Source: Gammaproteobacteria bacterium
Lineage (GTDB): Bacteria > Pseudomonadota > Gammaproteobacteria > GCA-002705445 > GCA-002716945
Assembly: GCA_038142325.1 (NCBI GenBank)
Contig: JAYQJW010000002.1
Location: forward strand, 715,328 to 779,327
Reading direction: 5' to 3'
Length of the DNA stretch: 64,000 nt
Shown here: positions 42,524 through 55,677 of the stretch, one piece after another
Numbering within the stretch: position 1 is the first letter of the stretch
Layout: each line of letters starts with the position of its first letter
Notes under the pieces: generated by a model
Seen by the model: the letters and a program-made list of their open reading frames with translations, nothing else
What the model was told of the DNA's origin: nothing
Databases searched by the model: none
Translations under genes and position numbers: made by a program

Positions 42524-43247
42524 CTTGATTGATGAATGCTAATATTTTTTTATAATTTTGATATCCCGGTATTATTCTACCATCATCTAAAAAGATAGTT
42601 GGCGTGCCCTCTACAGATAATATTCCAGCATATTCAAAGTTTTTATCAAGCGGGTTATCACAACCGTTACTTTCATCGAGTAATTCTCCTTGAAACAGAT
42701 CTTCAACAGAACTTACTCTGTCTTCAGAGCACCATGCAGATAGTAACTGCTGATAAGCATCGACAGTATTACCATTTCTAGAGAATAATACATATCTCAC
42801 TTCTACATTGTTTTCCAGCAAATCTGGAATCTCATTATGGAGTTTTTGACAATAAGGACATGATGAATCTGTAAATACAGTCATAATATGATTTGATTTT
42901 TGTGGCTTATAAATAATCATATTATTAGGGTCTATAGATTCTATTACTGCTATTCTTTGTTTCATCTTTGTATTTTCAGTAATGCTTTCTTTTGTATCTA
43001 GATTAATGACGTTTCCTACAATTAAATATTTACCATCATTAGTTGCATAATATATTTGATTGTTGATTATGATTTCATGAAAGTTTTCATCTATTTTTTT
43101 TATATTTTCAATATTTACATTAGGATAAGCTTCAGATACAACTTTTTTAATATCAGCATCTTCTATGCCTTTTTTAATATCAGCATCTTCTTTTTTTGCA
43201 CATGAAAAAAGAACTGACAGAGCTATGAATATAAAAAGATTTTTCAT
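42516..43247 (-). CDS. dsbC: DsbC family disulfide isomerase (lipoprotein-type signal)
   Basis: FTD..CPYCQKLH, GTPT, PGY; xerD-dsbC order; LFSC lipobox. Confidence 0.9.
   Translation of the reverse strand: MKNLFIFIALSVLFSCAKKEDADIKKGIEDADIKKVVSEAYPNVNIENIKKIDENFHEIIINNQIYYATNDGKYLIVGNVINLDTKESITENTKMKQRIAVIESIDPNNMIIYKPQKSNHIMTVFTDSSCPYCQKLHNEIPDLLENNVEVRYVLFSRNGNTVDAYQQLLSAWCSEDRVSSVEDLFQGELLDESNGCDNPLDKNFEYAGILSVEGTPTIFLDDGRIIPGYQNYKKILAFINQAN
43142..43191. repeat. 23-bp direct repeat, period 27 bp, inside dsbC
   Basis: CTTTTTTAATATCAGCATCTTCT at 43142-43164 and 43169-43191 (EDADIKK twice). Confidence 0.9.
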
Positions 43248-49455: not shown

Positions 49456-49896
49456 TTGAAAAGCACTGCTAATTTTTATTCGCTGAACAAAAGTCAAAAT
49501 CTTCATTTGTCTGTTTGTTTCCTTGCAAGAAAATTATATAAGACTGGGCGTAAAATCGTAATTATTGATGTTGACGATAATCTAGAAAAAATAGATAAAC
49601 TACTTTGGACTTTTGAACAAAACAGTTTTTTACCCCATAAAATCTATAAGTCAGATACTTGTTTTGATACACCAATTATTCTCGTATCAGCAACATATCC
49701 TGATAAACAATCTATACTAGATAAATACGACTCAATAATAAATATTTATGAAAAGCCAGTCATTGATAAAATTGATGATAAATCAATATATGAATTTGTT
49801 GAGAATATTGAGAATAGAAAAGAAATTAGTAGAAAAAAATATACTTTATATAAAAATAATAACTTTGTATTAAACCATAAAGAGTTCAATGAATAA
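49456..49896 (+). CDS. holC: DNA polymerase III chi subunit
   Basis: FY, LLWTFEQNSFLPH; pepA-holC-valS order. Confidence 0.88.
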   Translation: MKSTANFYSLNKSQNLHLSVCFLARKLYKTGRKIVIIDVDDNLEKIDKLLWTFEQNSFLPHKIYKSDTCFDTPIILVSATYPDKQSILDKYDSIINIYEKPVIDKIDDKSIYEFVENIENRKEISRKKYTLYKNNNFVLNHKEFNE

Positions 49897-52622
49897 ACAA
49901 TATAAACCACAAGAGATAGAACAAGCCATTTATGATGAATGGGAAAAAAATAAATGTTTTTCTCCAAAACAGTCTTCATCTAAATTTTCCATAGTGCTTC
50001 CCCCACCTAATGTGACAGGTACTCTTCACATGGGTCATGCATTTCAACATACAATCATTGATATTCTTGTAAGATATCATCGAATGCTTGGAAAAAGTGT
50101 ATTATGGCAGCCTGGTACTGACCATGCAGGTATAGCTACTCAGCTTGTTGTTGAAAATAGGATTAAAAATACTGGAAGAGATGTTAAAGCTCTCAGCAGA
50201 GAAGAGTTTATTGATGAAGTTTGGGAATGGAAAGAATTATCTGGCAACACAATCATAAATCAAACAAAAAGAATTGGTTCTTCTGCAGATTGGTCAAGAA
50301 ATAGATTCACGATGGATGATGGATTGTCTAAAATCGTGGAAGATGTTTTCATTTCTTTATACGAAGAAAAGCTAATATATAGAGGAAACCGATTAGTAAA
50401 TTGGGATATTAAATTACAGACTGCTGATTCTGATTTAGAAGTTGTTAATAAAGGCCAGGATGGATATTTATACTACCTAAGATATCAATTAAAAGATTCG
50501 AGTGATTCTATTGTAGTAGCTACTACAAGACCAGAGACATTCTTTGGTGATTCTGCAATCTGTATAAATCCTGAGGATACAAGATATAAACATCTTATAG
50601 GTAAAGAAATTGCCCTGCCAATGATCAAAAGATACATACCGGTTATACAAGATGAATTGGTTGATATGGATTTTGGTACTGGATGTCTAAAGATAACTCC
50701 AGCACATGATTTTAATGATTACAAAGTTGGTAAAAAACATAATCTTAATTTTATTAACATCTTGAATAAAGACGGAACATTAAATGAAAATGTTCATGAA
50801 AAATATATAGGTAAAAATATTCATACAGTTCGCGAGGAACTTGTTAATGATTTAGAAAAAGAACAAATATTAGTTAAAAAAGATAAATATCAGAATACTG
50901 TTCCAATAGGTGAGAGAACAGGTGAAATAATTGAACCTTTACTCACAAATCAATGGTTTATGAGCATGAGTTCTCTAGCAGAAAAAGGCGTAAAAGTTGT
51001 TGAAGATAAAAAGGTAAATTTTGTTCCTAAGCATTGGGAAAAAATCTATTTCAATTGGCTTAGAAATATTGAGGATTGGTGTGTAAGTCGACAAATTTTT
51101 TGGGGACATAGAATACCTGCTTGGTATGATGATGATGCTAATATTTACGTCGGTAAGAACGAAAAGGAAATTAGAAATAAATATAAATTAGCTGATAATA
51201 TAAACTTAACACAAGATTCTGATGTTCTTGATACATGGTTTTCATCTTCACTCTGGCCCTTTTCAACACTAGGATGGAAAGATGATGATAGTGTGTTTGA
51301 AAAATATTTTCCTACAAACCTTTTAGTAACAGGTTTTGATATCATTTTCTTTTGGGTTGCAAGAATGATAATGATGAGCATAAAGTTTACGGATAATATT
51401 CCATTTAATAAGGTTTATATTCATGGATTAGTCAGAGATTCAGAAGGTAAAAAAATGTCTAAATCAATTGGTAATGTAATAGATCCCTTAGATGTGATTG
51501 ATGGTATTTCTCTTGATAAACTTCTTGAAAAAAGGACAGCTAGTTTACTCAATGAAAAGCAAAAAGCAGATGTAATAAAAAAAACTAAAAGAGATTTTCC
51601 CTCTGGAATAAGGGAATATGGTGCTGATGCATTGAGATTTAATTTTTGCGCTATGGCTTCTACTGGTAGGGATATAAACTTCGATTTAAATAGAATAGAA
51701 GGGTACAGGAATTTTTGTAATAAAATTTGGAATGCTTCAAGATATATTCTCATGTCTTGTGAAGGTTTTAATTACCAAGAAAAAATTAATCCCAACGACT
51801 CTAGTATCTTTGATAAATGGATTTTATACAGCCTAGATAATGTTGTGAGTGACTTTAAAAAATATACAACAACTTATAGATTTGATTTAATGGCTAATGG
51901 TATCTACGATTTTGTTTGGAATGAATATTGTGACTGGTATCTTGAAATTTCTAAACATAATATGAATGATGTAACAAAAAATCATCTTATTTTTTCAATA
52001 TTAAGAATTATAAAATTATGTCATCCAATTATACCTTTTATAACAGAAAGTATTTGGAAAGAGTTTTATAAATGTAAATTTGTATCTGAGAAAATGCTCA
52101 TTAATAGTAGCTTTCCATCTCAAATAAGAATTTCTAAAGAAGATGATGTTGAGGCTAGAGTAAATCGTATCAAGAGAAATAATAAAAAAAATTAGAAAAA
52201 CAAGAACAGAGTTAGGTATACATCCTAAACAAATCATTAGTATAAATGTACATATTAAAAAATCAGAAATAAAAAATGATGTTACAGAACATCAAAGCCT
52301 AATTGAGTCGATGACTAATACAAATATTGATATCACAGCTGAGCAATCAGATGTAAATGAATATATTGATTTAATCGATGATAACTATACTCTATATTTA
52401 AAAATTAGAAATTTAATTAATGTTCAGGAAGAAATGAAGAGAATAGATAAAAAGCTAATAGAGCTCGAAGCAATCGTTACAAAGATAAATTCTAAGCTGA
52501 ATAATAAGAGTTTTATAGAAAAAGCTCCAAGTGAAATAATAAATCAGAATATTTCTAACAAAAGCAAGATTGAGAACGACATATTATCTCTTAATAATCT
52601 TCGTAAAACTTTATCTAATTAA
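49889..52622 (+). CDS. valS: valine--tRNA ligase (frameshift near 52175)
   Basis: PPPNVTG.LHMGH, DVLDTWFSS, KMSKS; C-terminal coiled coil KLNNKSFIEKAP in 52311..52622. Confidence 0.97.
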
Positions 52623-53579
52623 ACTATATAATCTTTCAAGCGTTAGTCTAAAACTCGTTAAATCATTTGTGATGTTAATATTTAACTGATTCGTTAATTG
52701 CTTATACTCATTGCATTCTGAACCAATAAGAATAATATCCTCTGTCTTATCTGCATTTTCACGAATATGTTTAATTTCATATATCTTTCTGGCAATATCT
52801 CTTGGATTATTTATTGCTAAAACAACTAACTGTGCTCTCACATTTGTCGCCGCATATGTTATCTCATCATGGGGTACTCCATTACCAATATATGTGATAT
52901 CCCAGCCAACATTCTGTGCAACAATCAAATGCATTATTGTGTCTAATGATTCGTGTTCAGAGAGTAAAGATGCCAATACTAGGCGTGGGCAGTCCTCTTT
53001 AGACGATCTTAATTTTAAATACAAATTATTTAAACAAGTTCTTATGCTTAATTTGGACATTTTTTCTTGCGCATATCTAATGCTGCCTCTAGAACATTCG
53101 TCATTAATATAATTGCTCAATGGTTTTATAAACTCAATTAGAAAATCATTAGTGTTTAAAATGGCAACTGCATTAGATAATACATTATCTAATTTCCAGC
53201 TATTCATTTCTTTTATACATGAAATTGATTCATCAAATAATTCCATTACAGTACCTGTGCTAGGCCTTTTGTAACCAACAGAGAAATTAGATTCATCACC
53301 CATTACTAATTCAAACAAATCATCGTATGATAAAGATGCAATATCTCCAATGCGCCTTCCTGCAGCAATTGCTCTTTTAAGTAATGTTAGCTTGTCGATA
53401 TCTTTATCTGAGTATAACCTTCTGTTTGTATCATTACGTTGTGATACCACAGCTTGGTATCTCTTCTCCCACACTCTAATTACATCAGAACTTAAACCCG
53501 TTCTTCGATTGACAACTTGTATGAGATGTCTAGGTTTTGCAGATAAATCTTCTTTCATTTGTGAAATATTCAGGGACAT
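52611..53579 (-). CDS. CarH/LitR-type MerR-family regulator with (degenerate) cobalamin-binding domain; probable start 53579 (or 53558)
   Basis: MerR wHTH RRTGLSSDVIRVWEKRY..RRLYS; helical bundle ..RGSIRYAQE..; Rossmann GWDITYIGNGVP. Confidence 0.85.
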   Translation of the reverse strand: MSLNISQMKEDLSAKPRHLIQVVNRRTGLSSDVIRVWEKRYQAVVSQRNDTNRRLYSDKDIDKLTLLKRAIAAGRRIGDIASLSYDDLFELVMGDESNFSVGYKRPSTGTVMELFDESISCIKEMNSWKLDNVLSNAVAILNTNDFLIEFIKPLSNYINDECSRGSIRYAQEKMSKLSIRTCLNNLYLKLRSSKEDCPRLVLASLLSEHESLDTIMHLIVAQNVGWDITYIGNGVPHDEITYAATNVRAQLVVLAINNPRDIARKIYEIKHIRENADKTEDIILIGSECNEYKQLTNQLNINITNDLTSFRLTLERLYSLIR

Positions 53580-53595
53580 TCCCTTGTTGTTGTTA

Positions 53596-53635
53596 ATTAT
53601 TGCTTTATCCATAGCTTTTGTCAATCCTTTGTCTA
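53596..53635 (-). promoter_or_regulatory. sigma70-like promoter of the regulator overlapped by TnnACA repeats
   Basis: Minus strand TTGACA(53624-53619)-N17-AATAAT(53601-53596); TAGACA(53635-53630) 11 bp upstream of the -35. Confidence 0.65.
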
Positions 53636-53695
53636 TTATTAGACGAACAGTATCACTATTTAATCTGTTTGTATATATTTTGTTCATTTTTTTTA

Positions 53696-53743
53696 TTGAC
53701 ATGTCTATATTATTCAGATATTGTCTTAGACAGGATGTAGACA
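53696..53743 (+). promoter_or_regulatory. sigma70-like promoter for divergent sRNA with operator-like repeats
   Basis: TTGACA(53696-53701)-N17-TATTGT(53719-53724); TAGACA at 53727 and 53738 (11-bp spacing). Confidence 0.7.
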
Positions 53744-53803
53744 ACACGTCATATCCCCACCCCTTTAATGAAAGGCCGAATTTACCCCCTTCGGCCTTTT
53801 TTT
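53731..53803 (+). ncRNA. putative ~72-nt small RNA
   Basis: Lies between promoter and terminator; 5' hairpin GGATGT-A-GAC-AACAC-GTC-ATATCC; C-rich linker; no credible internal ORF; GC-rich against AT-rich background. Confidence 0.6.
53771..53803 (+). terminator. intrinsic terminator (T-tract on + strand; possibly bidirectional for dinB)
   Basis: AAAGGCCGAA-TTTACCCCC-TTCGGCCTTT with a 7-T run ending at 53803. Confidence 0.85.
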
Positions 53804-55016
53804 ATACTGATTTTCTGTAGCCGTTAGGACGCCAAGCGGGCGCAATAACATCAGTGCTCTCATAAAGGTCAAGTTTTAAACGTGCTAACTCAATAGTATC
53901 TTTACCAAATTTTTTATTAATATTGTCTACAACTCTTAAACATTTGTTTTGATTAGTTGCTCTGTCAAAAAAATCACCTTGTATGTTTTTTTGAACAGGA
54001 CGTATTGTCGTTACCTGGACTTGATAAATGCCCACATTTTTATCAAGCATGTTTAAAACATGCTCGCACAATTGAAAGATTTTTCGCTGATCAGATGTAG
54101 CATATTCGAGTTTAATCTTTTTTTGAATCCAGCCAGCTTTTATTTTTATACCAATCATAAATTTTTTTGATTCATGATTACATTCTCTTAATCGCTTGGA
54201 TAGTTTTACAGATATTTTTAAAAATATTTTTTTTATCAGATTTCTATCCTTTGTATTTGGCATTACAACTTTTCCATGACCTAGGCTTTTTGGATACATT
54301 GGATCTAATGTAAGTCCTTCAAAGTCTTCTCCATTTGCCATCAACCATATCTTTTTTCCAATATTTCCAAATCTATTCGAAAGTATACTAATAGGTATTT
54401 TCTTCATATCGGAACATTTATACACTCCATGTTCATTGAGAAATCTCGTTATACCCTTGGATACGCCGCATAGTTTGTCAACATCTGCATTGCTTAAATA
54501 TTGATCACGATTATTTTTATTAATAAAAGTAATACCATCAGGTTTGTTAACTTTGGAGGCAAATTTAGCTAATGATTTGCTATATGAAACTCCTATTGAG
54601 CATTTAAGATTTTCAGACGAATATATCAAGTCCTTAACATGATAGATGATTGTATCTATATTTTTATATATTCTCATACAGTTTGTTAATTCTAAAAAAG
54701 CCTCGTCTACAGAATAAACCTGAATATCAGGAGTGACATTTTTCAAGATATTCATGATGTTAGTAGATACAGCAGTATATATATTTGGTCTTGATGGTCG
54801 CTGAATTAAATAGGGACAGATTCTTTTTGCTTCATAAAGCCTCATGCCTGTTTTTACCCCAAAGGCTCTTGCTTCGTAAGATGAAGTGATAACGCATGAT
54901 CCTTTTATTCCATTAGTTACTGCTATAGGTTTTCCTGCTAGTTCTGGAAAATCTCTCTGTTCTATGGATGCAAAAAAAGCATTCATATCAACATGAAGAT
55001 ATATTTTTGGATTCAT
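53802..55016 (-). CDS. dinB: Y-family DNA polymerase (DinB/Pol IV-like)
   Basis: HVDMNAFFASIEQ, SYEARAFGV, YSVDEAFL, AKFAS..NKPDG, QGDFF clamp-binding-like motif. Confidence 0.88.
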   Translation of the reverse strand: MNPKIYLHVDMNAFFASIEQRDFPELAGKPIAVTNGIKGSCVITSSYEARAFGVKTGMRLYEAKRICPYLIQRPSRPNIYTAVSTNIMNILKNVTPDIQVYSVDEAFLELTNCMRIYKNIDTIIYHVKDLIYSSENLKCSIGVSYSKSLAKFASKVNKPDGITFINKNNRDQYLSNADVDKLCGVSKGITRFLNEHGVYKCSDMKKIPISILSNRFGNIGKKIWLMANGEDFEGLTLDPMYPKSLGHGKVVMPNTKDRNLIKKIFLKISVKLSKRLRECNHESKKFMIGIKIKAGWIQKKIKLEYATSDQRKIFQLCEHVLNMLDKNVGIYQVQVTTIRPVQKNIQGDFFDRATNQNKCLRVVDNINKKFGKDTIELARLKLDLYESTDVIAPAWRPNGYRKSV

Positions 55017-55018
55017 GG

Positions 55019-55618
55019 CTAGTAAATTCTTACTTGCCCAATTACATGACCTTGTATTGAAATTCTTTCAACAGGATAAATTATTTCTTTAAATTTATTA
55101 TTAGCAGGAATGAGCTTTATTTCATCAGAATTAATTTTTTCTATATATTTTAATGTTACATCTTGATTGTCGATTAAGACGACATGAACCTTTGACTTAT
55201 GCGTCTTATTACTTTCTTCAATTATTACCCAATCTCCATCATTAATACCAGCGTCAATCATAGAATCACCTTTAACTTTTAAAGCATATGATTTTTTATT
55301 AGTAAATAAGTACTCGAGCTCAATCTTTTGTTGATCTGTTATTGCTTCTATTGCCCCACCGGCAGCAATTTTTCCTAAAGATTTTAAAAAAATAGGTTCT
55401 TTTTGATGCAGGAGTATCCCTCTATGTTTGTTAGGAATTTTTTTTAACTTGTTGGCCTTCTCAAGAGCTTTTACATATCGATGAGCAACACCCTTTGACT
55501 TGATACCTATTCCTTTTGCAATATCTGTTAATAGAGGATATCTCCCGTATTTTTTAGAATACTTAAGTATAAATTCATAAGCCTTTTGTTCTTTTTCAGT
55601 TAGTACCTGGTAATTCAT
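55019..55618 (-). CDS. lexA: LexA repressor
   Basis: wHTH N-domain, GKIAAG cleavage site, VKGDSM (Ser), VTLK (Lys). Confidence 0.92.
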   Translation of the reverse strand: MNYQVLTEKEQKAYEFILKYSKKYGRYPLLTDIAKGIGIKSKGVAHRYVKALEKANKLKKIPNKHRGILLHQKEPIFLKSLGKIAAGGAIEAITDQQKIELEYLFTNKKSYALKVKGDSMIDAGINDGDWVIIEESNKTHKSKVHVVLIDNQDVTLKYIEKINSDEIKLIPANNKFKEIIYPVERISIQGHVIGQVRIY

Positions 55619-55639
55619 AAGTTCTCATTAAGTTCTCAT
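55618..55639 (-). promoter_or_regulatory. putative LexA operator: exact 11-bp tandem repeat containing GAAC-N7-GAAC
   Basis: TAAGTTCTCAT at 55618-55628 and 55629-55639, between the -10 (TATTAT) and the lexA ATG. Confidence 0.75.
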
Positions 55640-55677
55640 ATAATACATGAACTGCTCGAGCGGAACAAGATTAAATT

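What the first reader, a model, noticed from the sequence alone, without database searches (positions are those of the whole stretch)
53579..53803. Unannotated structured small RNA transcribed divergently from a CarH/LitR-type regulator: candidate new regulator-sRNA module
Seen: the 220-bp gap between the regulator's probable start and the dinB stop holds a complete + strand transcription unit with no credible ORF (only an ATG-TAG start-stop at 53735 and an ATG at 53768 entering the terminator). It has a near-consensus promoter TTGACA(53696)-N17-TATTGT(53719) and a predicted start near 53731. A 5' hairpin (GGATGT/ATATCC plus GAC/GTC, 53733-53756) is followed by an unpaired linker CCACCCCTTTAATG and a 10-bp terminator stem with loop TTTACCCCC. 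The 7-T tract lies on the + strand, opposite to both flanking genes. The motif ACCCC(C)TT occurs twice in unpaired positions. Known: CarH/LitR repressors usually sit beside their protein-coding targets (carotenoid genes, photolyase), and C-rich loops are typical seeds of sRNAs that pair with G-rich ribosome-binding sites. Inference: the divergent target here is a ~72-nt sRNA that relays a light or stress signal post-transcriptionally. The regulator's own leader (ACAAGGGAAUG) has a 5-nt match to CCCUU, which is only suggestive of feedback. I do not recognise this RNA as a described family.
Basis: partly seen in the sequence, partly recalled or inferred. Interest (0 to 1): 0.85.

Follow-up and report, generated by a model that had tools for sequence, protein, structure and literature searches.

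The report
Conserved small RNA beside CarH-like repressor
A roughly 74-base non-coding RNA gene with its own promoter and terminator sits next to a CarH-like repressor gene in tiny-genome marine bacteria, is far better conserved than its neighbours, and appears to share that repressor with one membrane enzyme gene.

Summary
At 53696-53803 (+) there is a TTGACA-N17-TATTGT promoter, a 5' hairpin, a C-rich linker and a terminator with an ACCCCC loop. No Rfam family matches it.

The unit is single-copy. It occurs in 34 of 37 genomes of this gammaproteobacterial order, and it lies divergent to the regulator in 84 of 86 loci that have room for one. Between genera it is 81% identical, while the regulator's fourfold sites are saturated at 35%. 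It is therefore a selected RNA gene, not merely the dinB terminator.

The regulator belongs to the CarH/LitR family by homology. It lacks the B12 signature residues (Wx9EH is Cx9EK, and there is no conserved axial His), so "light" is unsupported.

CarH-style 11-bp direct repeats (TnnACA) overlap both promoters. The same promoter-operator composite occurs at only one other kind of place: upstream of an AlkB-like desaturase-family gene (17 of 17 type-1 loci; 56 matches in 36 of 37 genomes, one or two each).

Still open:
- No expression data could be obtained.
- Covariation is weak.
- Comparative target prediction gave no enrichment. csrA and two other genes with GGGGG ribosome-binding sites are leads only.
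- Feedback on the regulator's own leader is not supported.

The parts
52611..53579 (-). Regulator gene (322 aa). It has a MerR-type HTH with RVWEKRY (RAWERRY in the other genera). Its C-terminal domain is homologous to the CarH B12-binding module but reads DEC...EK where CarH has Wx9EH, and it has no conserved axial His.
   Evidence: - Pfam MerR_1, E = 1.5e-11.
- Best PDB matches are T. thermophilus LitR/CarH, E = 3e-7.
- NCBIfam CarH scores 65 bits against a cut-off of 400.
- The C-terminal profile finds 1430 proteins at E <= 1e-3. Of 10 tested, 7 carry both B12-binding Pfam domains.
- Motif columns are shown.
53596..53624 (-). Probable promoter of the regulator: -35 TTGACA at 53624-53619 and -10 AATAAT at 53601-53596.
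   Evidence: 11 of 12 matches. The TTTGTCAA block is invariant or nearly so in the 30 loci. Function is inferred.
53616..53639 (-). Pair of tandem 11-bp direct repeats. TTGT sits at 53618 and 53629 on the + strand, which reads TTGACA / TAGACA (TnnACA) on the - strand. The pair overlaps the regulator's own -35. Candidate autoregulatory operator.
   Evidence: TTGT lies at -78 in 26 of 30 loci and at -67 in 24 of 30, relative to the sRNA -35. A spacing of 11 bp was counted 57 times, against 0 for 10 or 12 bp. The CarH operator consensus comes from passages of PMC9304148.
53667..53690 (-). Second pair of 11-bp repeats (TTGT at 53669 and 53680), just upstream of the sRNA -35.
   Evidence: TTGT is at -16 in 26 of 30 loci. 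It is at -27 in 11 of 30, at -26 in a further 4 (L012, L013, L014, L020, the g4 loci, which are offset by 1 nt), and at neither position in the other 15.
53696..53724 (+). sRNA promoter: -35 TTGACA, 17-nt spacer, -10 TATTGT.
   Evidence: TTGACA and TAnTGT are kept in 30 of 30 loci, with a 17-18 nt spacer whose sequence differs between genera.
53727..53748 (+). Two tandem 11-bp repeats, TAGACAGGATG and TAGACAACACG (TnnACA), covering the predicted start and the 5' arm of the hairpin. Candidate operator shared with the AlkB-like gene.
   Evidence: In the own genome, TAnTGT-N2-7-GACA-N7-GACA occurs only here and at C7:52021-52045. Order-wide there are 56 matches in 36 of 37 genomes, against 3 for the reversed control.
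53730..53803 (+). Predicted sRNA of about 72-74 nt. The start is inferred at the invariant ACA, 6-8 nt after the -10. The end lies in the U tract.
   Evidence: - Fold.
- Covariance model R1 finds one copy in the own genome, 88.8 bits, and 34 of 37 genomes in the order.
- No Rfam match.
- No RNA-level evidence.
53733..53756 (+). 5' hairpin (GGATGT/ATATCC plus GAC/GTC) with a variable loop.
   Evidence: Column pair 4:29 occurs as GC 24, GU 11, AU 7 and other 3 in 48 distinct sequences, with 3 gaps. Loop length and sequence vary.
53757..53770 (+). Unpaired linker. Its core CCACCCCTTTA is invariant or nearly so. Proposed seed.
   Evidence: C28-T36 invariant.
53771..53803 (+). Intrinsic terminator: a 10-bp stem, a loop with invariant ACCCCC, and 7 T (7-9 in relatives). 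It abuts the dinB stop codon.
   Evidence: The terminator is kept in the 17 of 100 loci where dinB is not the downstream neighbour (examples).
53802..55016 (-). dinB (Y-family polymerase), convergent with the sRNA. lexA follows at 55019-55618.
   Evidence: Pfam IMS, E = 9e-44; Peptidase_S24 / LexA_DNA_bind.

Best explanation
The locus encodes a genuine, lineage-specific small RNA of about 74 nt. It is transcribed on the + strand from a sigma-70-type promoter and ended by its own intrinsic terminator.

Its transcription is most likely repressed by the divergently encoded CarH/LitR-family protein. That protein would bind tandem 11-bp TnnACA direct repeats that overlap its own -35, the region upstream of the sRNA -35, and the sRNA -10 and start site.

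The same promoter-operator composite drives one protein-coding gene elsewhere in the genome: an AlkB-like membrane enzyme of the FA_desaturase family. The sRNA and that enzyme therefore form a two-promoter regulon.

The regulator has lost the residues needed for canonical adenosylcobalamin binding. Its signal is thus probably not B12-mediated light and remains unknown.

Once made, the RNA most likely acts in trans and without Hfq or ProQ. Its two invariant unpaired C-rich motifs (CCACCCCUUUA and ACCCCCUU) resemble the 3' end of 16S rRNA and could occlude G-rich ribosome-binding sites.

What is shown and what is inferred:
- Shown by sequence comparison: the gene's existence and its selection.
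- Inferred from operator architecture: control by the regulator.
- Inferred from anatomy only: the mode of action and the targets.

My confidence in each step is about 0.85 that it is a functional RNA gene, 0.7 that this regulator controls it, and 0.35 that it works by pairing with ribosome-binding sites. The overall figure of 0.55 is for the statement as a whole.
For: Anatomy and fold:
- (z = -7.2).

Not a described family:
- The best Rfam E-value is 0.36, and every score is at most 19.8 bits against gathering scores of 50 or more.

Conservation:
- 30 of 30 loci from six genera keep every element.
- There is one copy in the own genome, and 34 of 37 genomes of the order have it. Of the three without it, two (81% and 57% complete) fall short of 90% completeness and one is 92% complete; all three also lack the regulator hit.
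- It was not found in 150 other genomes of the class. The four weak hits there are terminators or a tRNA end.

Selection:
- Over 79 inter-genus pairs the sRNA is 81% identical. Fourfold sites of the neighbouring regulator are 35% identical and its protein is 70% identical.
- Conservation begins at the predicted start and ends at the T-run. The promoter spacer varies.

Independence from dinB:
- The unit persists in the 17 of 100 loci without dinB downstream.

Linkage to the regulator:
- A divergent regulator is present in 84 of 86 loci with at least 600 nt of room. The two exceptions are chance pattern hits.

Operators:
- TTGT sits at fixed positions, and 11-bp spacing was counted 57 times against 0 for 10 or 12 bp.
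- This matches the published CarH operator, tandem 11-bp repeats nnnnTnnACAn overlapping the -35. The RxWERRY recognition helix is also present (passages of PMC9304148).

Regulon:
- The composite pattern occurs twice in the 1.1-Mb genome.
- It is present at 17 of 17 type-1 AlkB-like loci and 0 of 12 type-2 loci.
- There are 56 matches in 36 of 37 genomes, one or two each, every one at an sRNA or a type-1 AlkB-like promoter (or, in one genome, an orphan leader). The reversed control gives 3.
- In three genera no type-1 gene was found, which leaves the sRNA as the only recognisable target there.

Chaperones:
- No Hfq or ProQ match in a 98%-complete genome.
Against: - No transcript evidence. No RNA run holds the stretch. 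The two short metatranscriptome contigs laid on it cannot show strand, ends or level.
- Covariation is weak. Only 2 of 19 pairs show changes on both sides, and 16 of 500 shuffles reach the covariation score. The terminator stem was partly fixed by the search pattern.
- The 5' arm of the hairpin doubles as a DNA operator, so part of the sequence conservation may be DNA-level.
- Target prediction over 903 ortholog trios from three genera showed no excess of conserved pairing over reversed-seed controls. Counts were 10 against 5 at -13 kcal/mol or below, and 2 against 2 at -14 or below.
- Flanking complementarity to csrA is kept in some genera and not in others.
- Binding of the regulator to the repeats was not tested.
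Confidence: 0.55

Rival explanations
1. The RNA is made and selected, but it does not work by pairing with ribosome-binding sites. It could bind or titrate a protein, or act on a few targets through other regions. The C-rich motifs would then be protein-recognition or structural elements.
For: - Nearly every position is constrained, not only a seed.
- There is no statistical signal for conserved mRNA targets.
- Hfq and ProQ are absent while CsrA is present.
Against: - There is no GGA-repeat architecture of the CsrB/Rsm type. The single GGA at the 5' end becomes AGA or UGA in three genera.
- Two unpaired C-runs next to a terminator are the usual anatomy of base-pairing sRNAs (established knowledge, recalled).
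Confidence: 0.2
2. There is no functional RNA. The region would be only a cluster of operators for the regulator plus a terminator that shields dinB and lexA from convergent transcription out of a relic promoter. That promoter would be left over from an ancestral divergent AlkB-like gene.
For: - In five other gammaproteobacterial genomes the related regulator is divergent from an AlkB-like gene.
- The first 22 nt or so of the sRNA match the AlkB-like leader or operator.
- In one genome (G019) an AlkB-type leader is followed by a terminator and no gene.
- dinB is the convergent neighbour in 83 of 100 loci.
Against: - The invariant CCACCCCTTTA linker and ACCCCC loop are not TnnACA repeats, and neither an operator nor a terminator needs them. 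Yet they are kept while fourfold sites are saturated.
- The 3' arm of the 5' hairpin is kept complementary to the 5' arm, with GC, GU and AU variants.
- The unit is kept where dinB is absent.
Confidence: 0.08
3. The conserved element works on the - strand, as the dinB 3' end or terminator or as a leader or small ORF upstream of the regulator.
For: - The hairpin directly follows the dinB stop and has an A-run on its 5' side, so it could terminate in both directions.
- On the - strand a G-rich Shine-Dalgarno-like run precedes an ATG at 53753-53751.
Against: - On the - strand the stem is followed by UUUCAUU only, while the + strand has 7-9 U in all loci.
- The - strand fold is not unusual, z = -0.72.
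- The - strand ATG reads ACG in 9 of 30 loci, those with GTCGTATC. The peptides would be 8-12 aa and unrelated (read).
- The -35 and -10 are conserved in the + orientation, with conservation starting at the + strand start.
Confidence: 0.03

Closest known systems
Divergent transcription-factor/sRNA pairs of Gammaproteobacteria (OxyR-OxyS, GcvA-GcvB, SgrR-SgrS, VqmA-VqmR; recalled, not looked up here)
   Same: A small terminator-ended RNA gene lies head-to-head with the gene of the factor that is inferred to control it, and they share an intergenic control region.
   Different: - The factor here is a CarH/LitR-family repressor with direct-repeat operators.
- The host lacks Hfq and ProQ.
- The RNA has no sequence or Rfam relation to those sRNAs.
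CarH / LitR / CarA light-responsive MerR-family repressors (T. thermophilus CarH 5C8D, LitR 3WHP; Myxococcus CarH/CarA)
   Same: - Best PDB matches.
- RxWE(R/K)RY recognition helix.
- The C-terminal domain is homologous to the B12-binding module.
- Tandem 11-bp TnnACA repeats overlap promoters.
   Different: - Wx9EH is Cx9EK, and the axial His is His only in one genus and Tyr or Phe elsewhere.
- Neither Pfam B12 domain is detected in the protein itself.
- The targets are an sRNA and an AlkB-like gene, not carotenoid or photolyase genes.
C-rich, Hfq-independent sRNAs that pair with G-rich ribosome-binding sites (RsaE/RoxS of Firmicutes, CcsR of Rhodobacter) and cyanobacterial Yfr1 (two hairpins flanking a conserved single strand); all recalled
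   Same: Short RNA, unpaired C-runs in a linker and in a loop, and a terminator hairpin. The proposed mode of action is the same.
   Different: - No Rfam match to any family.
- Different phylum.
- The targets here are unproven.

Membership tests
Any Rfam 15 RNA family | Covariance-model score at or above the family's gathering threshold | tested here: not met
   8 matches at E <= 10. The best is 19.8 bits against gathering scores of 50-80, and the best E-value is 0.36.
CarH/LitR family (regulator) | N-terminal MerR-type HTH with an RxWERRY recognition helix | tested here: met
   Pfam MerR_1. RVWEKRY in genus 1 and RAWERRY in the other genera. The motif is as described in PMC9304148 (passages).
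CarH/LitR family (regulator) | C-terminal domain homologous to the four-helix bundle plus Rossmann B12-binding module | tested here: met
   - The profile of the C-terminal 228 residues finds 1430 proteins at E <= 1e-3.
- Most of the 150 best listed hits are about 300-325 aa, with the match in their C-terminal two thirds.
- Of 10 tested, 7 have both PF02607 and PF02310 and 2 have one of them.
- The direct match to the CarH chain over this domain is not significant by itself.
CarH (B12-dependent photoreceptor) | Intact Wx9EH motif | tested here: not met
   Cys162 stands where CarH has the Trp, and Glu172-Lys173 where it has Glu-His. Cys162 and Glu172 are invariant in 23 of 23 family members. Lys173 is nearly invariant (at least 90% of them; one search has one ER).
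CarH (B12-dependent photoreceptor) | D/ExHxxG motif supplying the lower axial His | tested here: not met
   The sequence is SEHESLD in genus 1 and SE(Y/F)ENLD in the other five genera. There is no Gly.
CarH/LitR family (regulator) | Operator of tandem 11-bp direct repeats nnnnTnnACAn overlapping a promoter | tested here: met
   Sequence pattern only. Binding was not tested.
CarH/LitR family (regulator) | Light- and AdoCbl-dependent DNA binding | not testable with these tools
   Needs protein biochemistry.
Hfq-dependent sRNAs | Host encodes Hfq | tested here: not met
   No PF17209 match in the 98.5%-complete genome. The control search matched ("rang" in the tool's output) in 5 named genomes. 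ProQ is likewise absent.
CsrB/Rsm-type CsrA sponges | Several GGA motifs in loops | tested here: not met
   There is at most one GGA, it lies in a stem, and it is lost in three genera. CsrA itself is present.
Divergent TF-sRNA module | sRNA gene head-to-head with its regulator, kept together across relatives | tested here: met
   84 of 86 loci with room; the 2 misses are chance hits. The regulatory link is inferred from operators only.

The most novel reading that the evidence does not exclude
In the most reduced free-living gammaproteobacteria, a CarH-type repressor that has given up B12 keeps a regulon of essentially one enzyme gene and one sRNA. In three genera the regulon is the sRNA alone.

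The sRNA would have arisen from the leader of the ancestral divergent AlkB-like gene. It would act as a mimic of the 16S anti-Shine-Dalgarno tail, shutting off the few mRNAs with GGGGG-type ribosome-binding sites. The global regulator csrA is among them, so one lipid, redox or light cue would be coupled to genome-wide post-transcriptional control without Hfq.
Probability: 0.15. Interest if true: 0.75.

Novelty: new member of a known kind. Interest (0 to 1): 0.55.

Why it matters
Regulatory RNAs of uncultured, genome-streamlined ocean bacteria are almost unknown. My searches of the held library found no paper that combines SAR86 with sRNA in a relevant way (2 irrelevant papers). None combined CarH, MerR and sRNA (0 papers).

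Here a 1.1-Mb genome with almost no intergenic space keeps a 220-bp spacer for one small RNA and its control region. It keeps that RNA more faithfully than neighbouring proteins. This marks a function that the cell cannot lose.

The locus also offers:
- a compact, testable system of one repressor, three operator clusters and two outputs;
- a natural example of a CarH-like protein that has replaced its B12 signature, with an invariant Cys where the Trp stands;
- a plausible case of an sRNA born from a gene's leader.

Tried and rejected
- Rfam at a permissive threshold gave only noise.
- Expression: no RNA holder was listed for the stretch. I laid four metatranscriptome runs at 85% likeness. One 216-nt contig of a relative covers 53722-53885, and one 159-nt contig ends near 53727. 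Both are contigs, so strand, ends and level cannot be read. The break near 53720-53727 may simply be an assembly-graph branch at the edge of a conserved block.
- Covariation: only 2 of 19 pairs changed on both sides.
- A genome-wide duplex scan of the own genome found no outstanding site at a start codon. The best non-self hit is a 9-bp match to 16S rRNA (GGUGGGGAU). By my estimate of about 0.4 expected, that is chance.
- Three-genus comparative target prediction over 903 ortholog trios showed no enrichment over reversed seeds.
- csrA ribosome-binding site: a GGAGGGG(G) run is kept in all 27 genomes where csrA was found, so pairing with the ACCCCC loop is always possible. Flanking compensation holds in some genera and fails in others. 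It remains a lead only.
- Feedback on the regulator's leader is at background level.
- A small ORF in the RNA: the + strand ATG at 53768 is absent in other genera, and the - strand ATG is ACG in 9 of 30 loci. Rejected.
- A LexA box in the sRNA promoter: none seen when compared by eye with the repeats upstream of lexA.
- More distant copies: none in 150 other genomes of the class.
- The two pattern hits L110 and L156 are a tRNA end and an unrelated terminator.
- Lineage name: record titles say only uncultured Gammaproteobacteria. My guess that it is SAR86-related or a sister order rests on recall and on passages of PMC11582366. It was not tested.
- Supplements of papers were not seen. The lists of putative sRNAs from ocean metatranscriptomes may hold this RNA. 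I know those lists only from a review's passage.
Full report
**What is there**

The 222-nt spacer lies between the regulator's ATG (53579, - strand) and the dinB stop (53802-53804, - strand).
- TTGACA (53696) - N17 - TATTGT (53719);
- a hairpin at 53733-53756;
- the linker CCACCCCTTTAATG;
- a 10-bp GC-rich stem with loop TTTACCCCC;
- seven T on the + strand.

The + strand RNA folds into this shape with -24.6 kcal/mol and z = -7.2. The opposite strand is unremarkable, with z = -0.72.

Promoter-like hexamers are not rare in this AT-rich DNA: 20 were found against 23.4 expected. The case therefore rests on comparison with relatives, not on the consensus match.

No Rfam family comes near. The best hit scores 19.8 bits, against gathering scores of 50 or more.

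**Host**

The genome is 1.10 Mb, 31.8% GC and 98.5% complete. Related public records are titled uncultured (marine) Gammaproteobacteria.

The order as held comprises 37 species genomes in one family and six genera, all about 1 Mb.

By a crude ORF tiling, the median gap between genes on the main contig is 5 nt. Only 100 of 1257 gaps exceed 200 nt.

**Conservation**

The regulator was found in 32 of 36 other genomes of the family.

In all 30 fetched loci the upstream region carries the same unit: -35, -10, hairpin, linker, terminator and 7-9 T. There are 21 distinct RNA sequences among them.

A covariance model built from these loci gave the following:
- one copy in the own genome;
- 34 of 37 genomes in the order;
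- only terminator-like noise in 150 other genomes of the class.

Two hits are cut by contig ends. The three genomes without a hit are 81%, 92% and 57% complete and also lack a regulator hit.

A pattern scan of metagenome contigs added 80 loci. The model matched 98 of 100 sources given to it. The two failures are unrelated hits.

Between genera the RNA is 81% identical, counting gaps as mismatches. Fourfold-degenerate sites of the adjacent regulator are 35% identical, which is saturated, and the regulator protein is 70% identical. These figures come from 79 inter-genus pairs among 14 loci that I chose to represent the genera.

Conservation starts at the predicted transcription start and stops at the T-run. 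The promoter spacer, both loops' 5' parts and the tail of the linker vary. This is the footprint of a transcribed, selected RNA with a conserved promoter.

**Not merely the dinB terminator**

dinB is the convergent neighbour in 83 of 100 loci with room downstream. The unit is intact in the other 17 (examples L020, L021, L026, L027, L029 and L030).

On the - strand the stem is followed only by UUUCAUU.

**Structure**

The consensus fold has two helices. In 48 distinct sequences, 97.4% of cells pair, against 32-57% when the partners are slid.

Only two pairs show changes on both sides:
- 4:29 as GC, GU and AU;
- 50:71 as CG, UG and UA.

The covariation score is reached by 16 of 500 shuffles. The metagenome pattern fixed much of the terminator stem, so that helix could hardly vary. 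Structure is therefore consistent with the data and thermodynamically strong, but it is not proven by covariation.

**The regulator**

Pfam sees only the MerR HTH.

The best PDB matches are T. thermophilus LitR (3WHP) and CarH (5C8D) through the HTH, with a colinear but insignificant extension. NCBIfam's CarH model scores 65 bits against a cut-off of 400.

A word-based search found only close relatives. One of them is named by a source as a light-induced MerR regulator.

A profile of the C-terminal 228 residues, searched against 1.84 billion representatives, found 1430 proteins at E <= 1e-3. Most of the 150 best listed hits are about 300-325 aa and match in their C-terminal two thirds. Of 10 distant hits tested, 7 carry both B12-binding Pfam domains behind a MerR HTH. 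The protein is thus a CarH/LitR homologue.

In the joint alignment the canonical members show W-x9-EH and xHELG. The window's family and a subgroup 34-36% identical to it read DEC...(E)K and have no His there.

Within the family, Cys162 is invariant. The candidate axial position is His only in genus 1 and Tyr or Phe elsewhere.

By the criteria quoted in PMC9304148 (passages read), this is not a B12-dependent CarH. The signal is open.

**Operators**

Relative to the sRNA -35, TTGT occurs at -78 and -67, at -27 and -16, and at +14 and +25. The pair-distance histogram peaks at 11 bp with 57 counts, against 0 at 10 and 0 at 12 (30 loci).

Read on the - strand these are TnnACA units. The first pair overlaps the regulator's own -35.

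On the + strand, two further tandem units, TAGACAGGATG and TAGACAACACG, cover the sRNA start and the hairpin's 5' arm.

CarH proteins bind tandem 11-bp repeats nnnnTnnACAn that overlap promoters (PMC9304148, passages). I did not test binding.

**A second target**

In five other gammaproteobacterial genomes, a regulator of the DEC subgroup lies divergent from a gene of the FA_desaturase family. I call that gene AlkB-like because of its His boxes; the label is from recall.

The own genome has two paralogues, both 68% identical to that protein.

The type-1 copy (contig C7:52131) is preceded by TTGACA-N17-TATTGT-TATGGACAGAAAGTAGACA. This is the same composite as at the sRNA. In the whole genome, on both strands, that composite occurs only at these two places.

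- It is present at 17 of 17 type-1 loci and 0 of 12 type-2 loci.
- Across the order a pattern for it matches 56 times in 36 of 37 genomes, one or two per genome.
- Every match is at an sRNA promoter, a type-1 AlkB-like promoter or, in G019, an AlkB-type leader followed by a terminator and no gene.
- The reversed control pattern matches 3 times.

In genera g3, g4 and g5 no type-1 gene was found with this query. The sRNA is then the only recognisable output there.

This supports control of the sRNA by the regulator. It also suggests that the sRNA descends from the leader of an ancestral divergent AlkB-like gene; that is inference.

**How the RNA may act**

Hfq and ProQ were not found. CsrA is present.

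The invariant unpaired motifs CCACCCCUUUA and ACCCCCUU resemble the anti-Shine-Dalgarno tail of 16S rRNA. That resemblance is recalled; I did not check the 16S 3' end here.

A comparative scan of 903 ortholog trios from three genera gave no excess over reversed seeds.

The few genes with a conserved GGGGG-type ribosome-binding site are:
- csrA;
- a weakly GST-like gene that lies next to the type-2 AlkB-like paralogue;
- a small lipoprotein.

For csrA, pairing of -12 to -20 kcal/mol is possible in all 23 genomes for which I held both the sRNA and csrA. Flank compensation is inconsistent.

Pairing with the regulator's own leader is at background. The mode of action is thus the weakest step.

**Verdict**

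This is a real, new sRNA family in a known kind of arrangement, with a well-defined and unusually small inferred regulon. Its "light" reading and "feedback" idea are not supported. Expression and targets remain to be shown.

Noticed in passing
window 49889-52622 (+): valS is split into a 768-aa ORF and a 103-aa ORF in different frames, with the break between 52195 and 52311. The reading frame is open through the fetched stretch in 27 of 30 related loci and broken in 3, one of which contains an N. This is probably an assembly or sequencing error, or a strain-specific frameshift. The valS stop overlaps the regulator's stop by 12 nt.
   Followed up: partly
window 55619-55640 (- strand), just upstream of lexA: ATGAGAACTTA is repeated in perfect tandem, which gives GAAC-N7-GAAC. 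This resembles the direct-repeat LexA boxes I recall from Alphaproteobacteria rather than the CTGT-N8-ACAG of most Gammaproteobacteria.
   Followed up: no
own genome contig C7:51998-52131 and 52131-53357 (outside the window); L341/L343: Type-1 AlkB-like FA_desaturase-family gene with a leader of about 100 nt. It carries the same promoter-operator composite as the sRNA, plus further GACA units at about +33 and about +75.
   Followed up: yes
G019 contig C1, about 43010-43226 (- strand): An AlkB-type promoter, operator and leader are followed by a hairpin (CCTCCTC...GAGGGGG) with a T-rich tail and no ORF. This is a possible second, leader-derived small RNA in a genus that lacks the type-1 gene.
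   Followed up: partly
own genome contig C2:583255-583437 (L306): csrA is present (Pfam, 84 bits), with a GGAGGGGG ribosome-binding site and GGA motifs in its leader, in a genome where neither Hfq nor ProQ was found. No CsrB/Rsm-like sponge RNA was looked for.
   Followed up: partly
own genome contig C8:16627-16662 (16S rRNA): The sRNA stretch AUCCCCACC is perfectly complementary to GGUGGGGAU of 16S rRNA, with further pairing after a 2-nt bulge. By a rough expectation of about 0.4 such matches, I judge this to be chance.
   Followed up: partly
loci L332, L333, L336-L338 (other Gammaproteobacteria): A subgroup of CarH-like regulators with DEC in place of the Wx9EH Trp and no axial His sits divergent from AlkB-like genes. 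Their shared spacers also contain TTGT repeats 11 bp apart. This may be a wider B12-independent branch with a lipid- or hydrocarbon-related regulon.
   Followed up: partly
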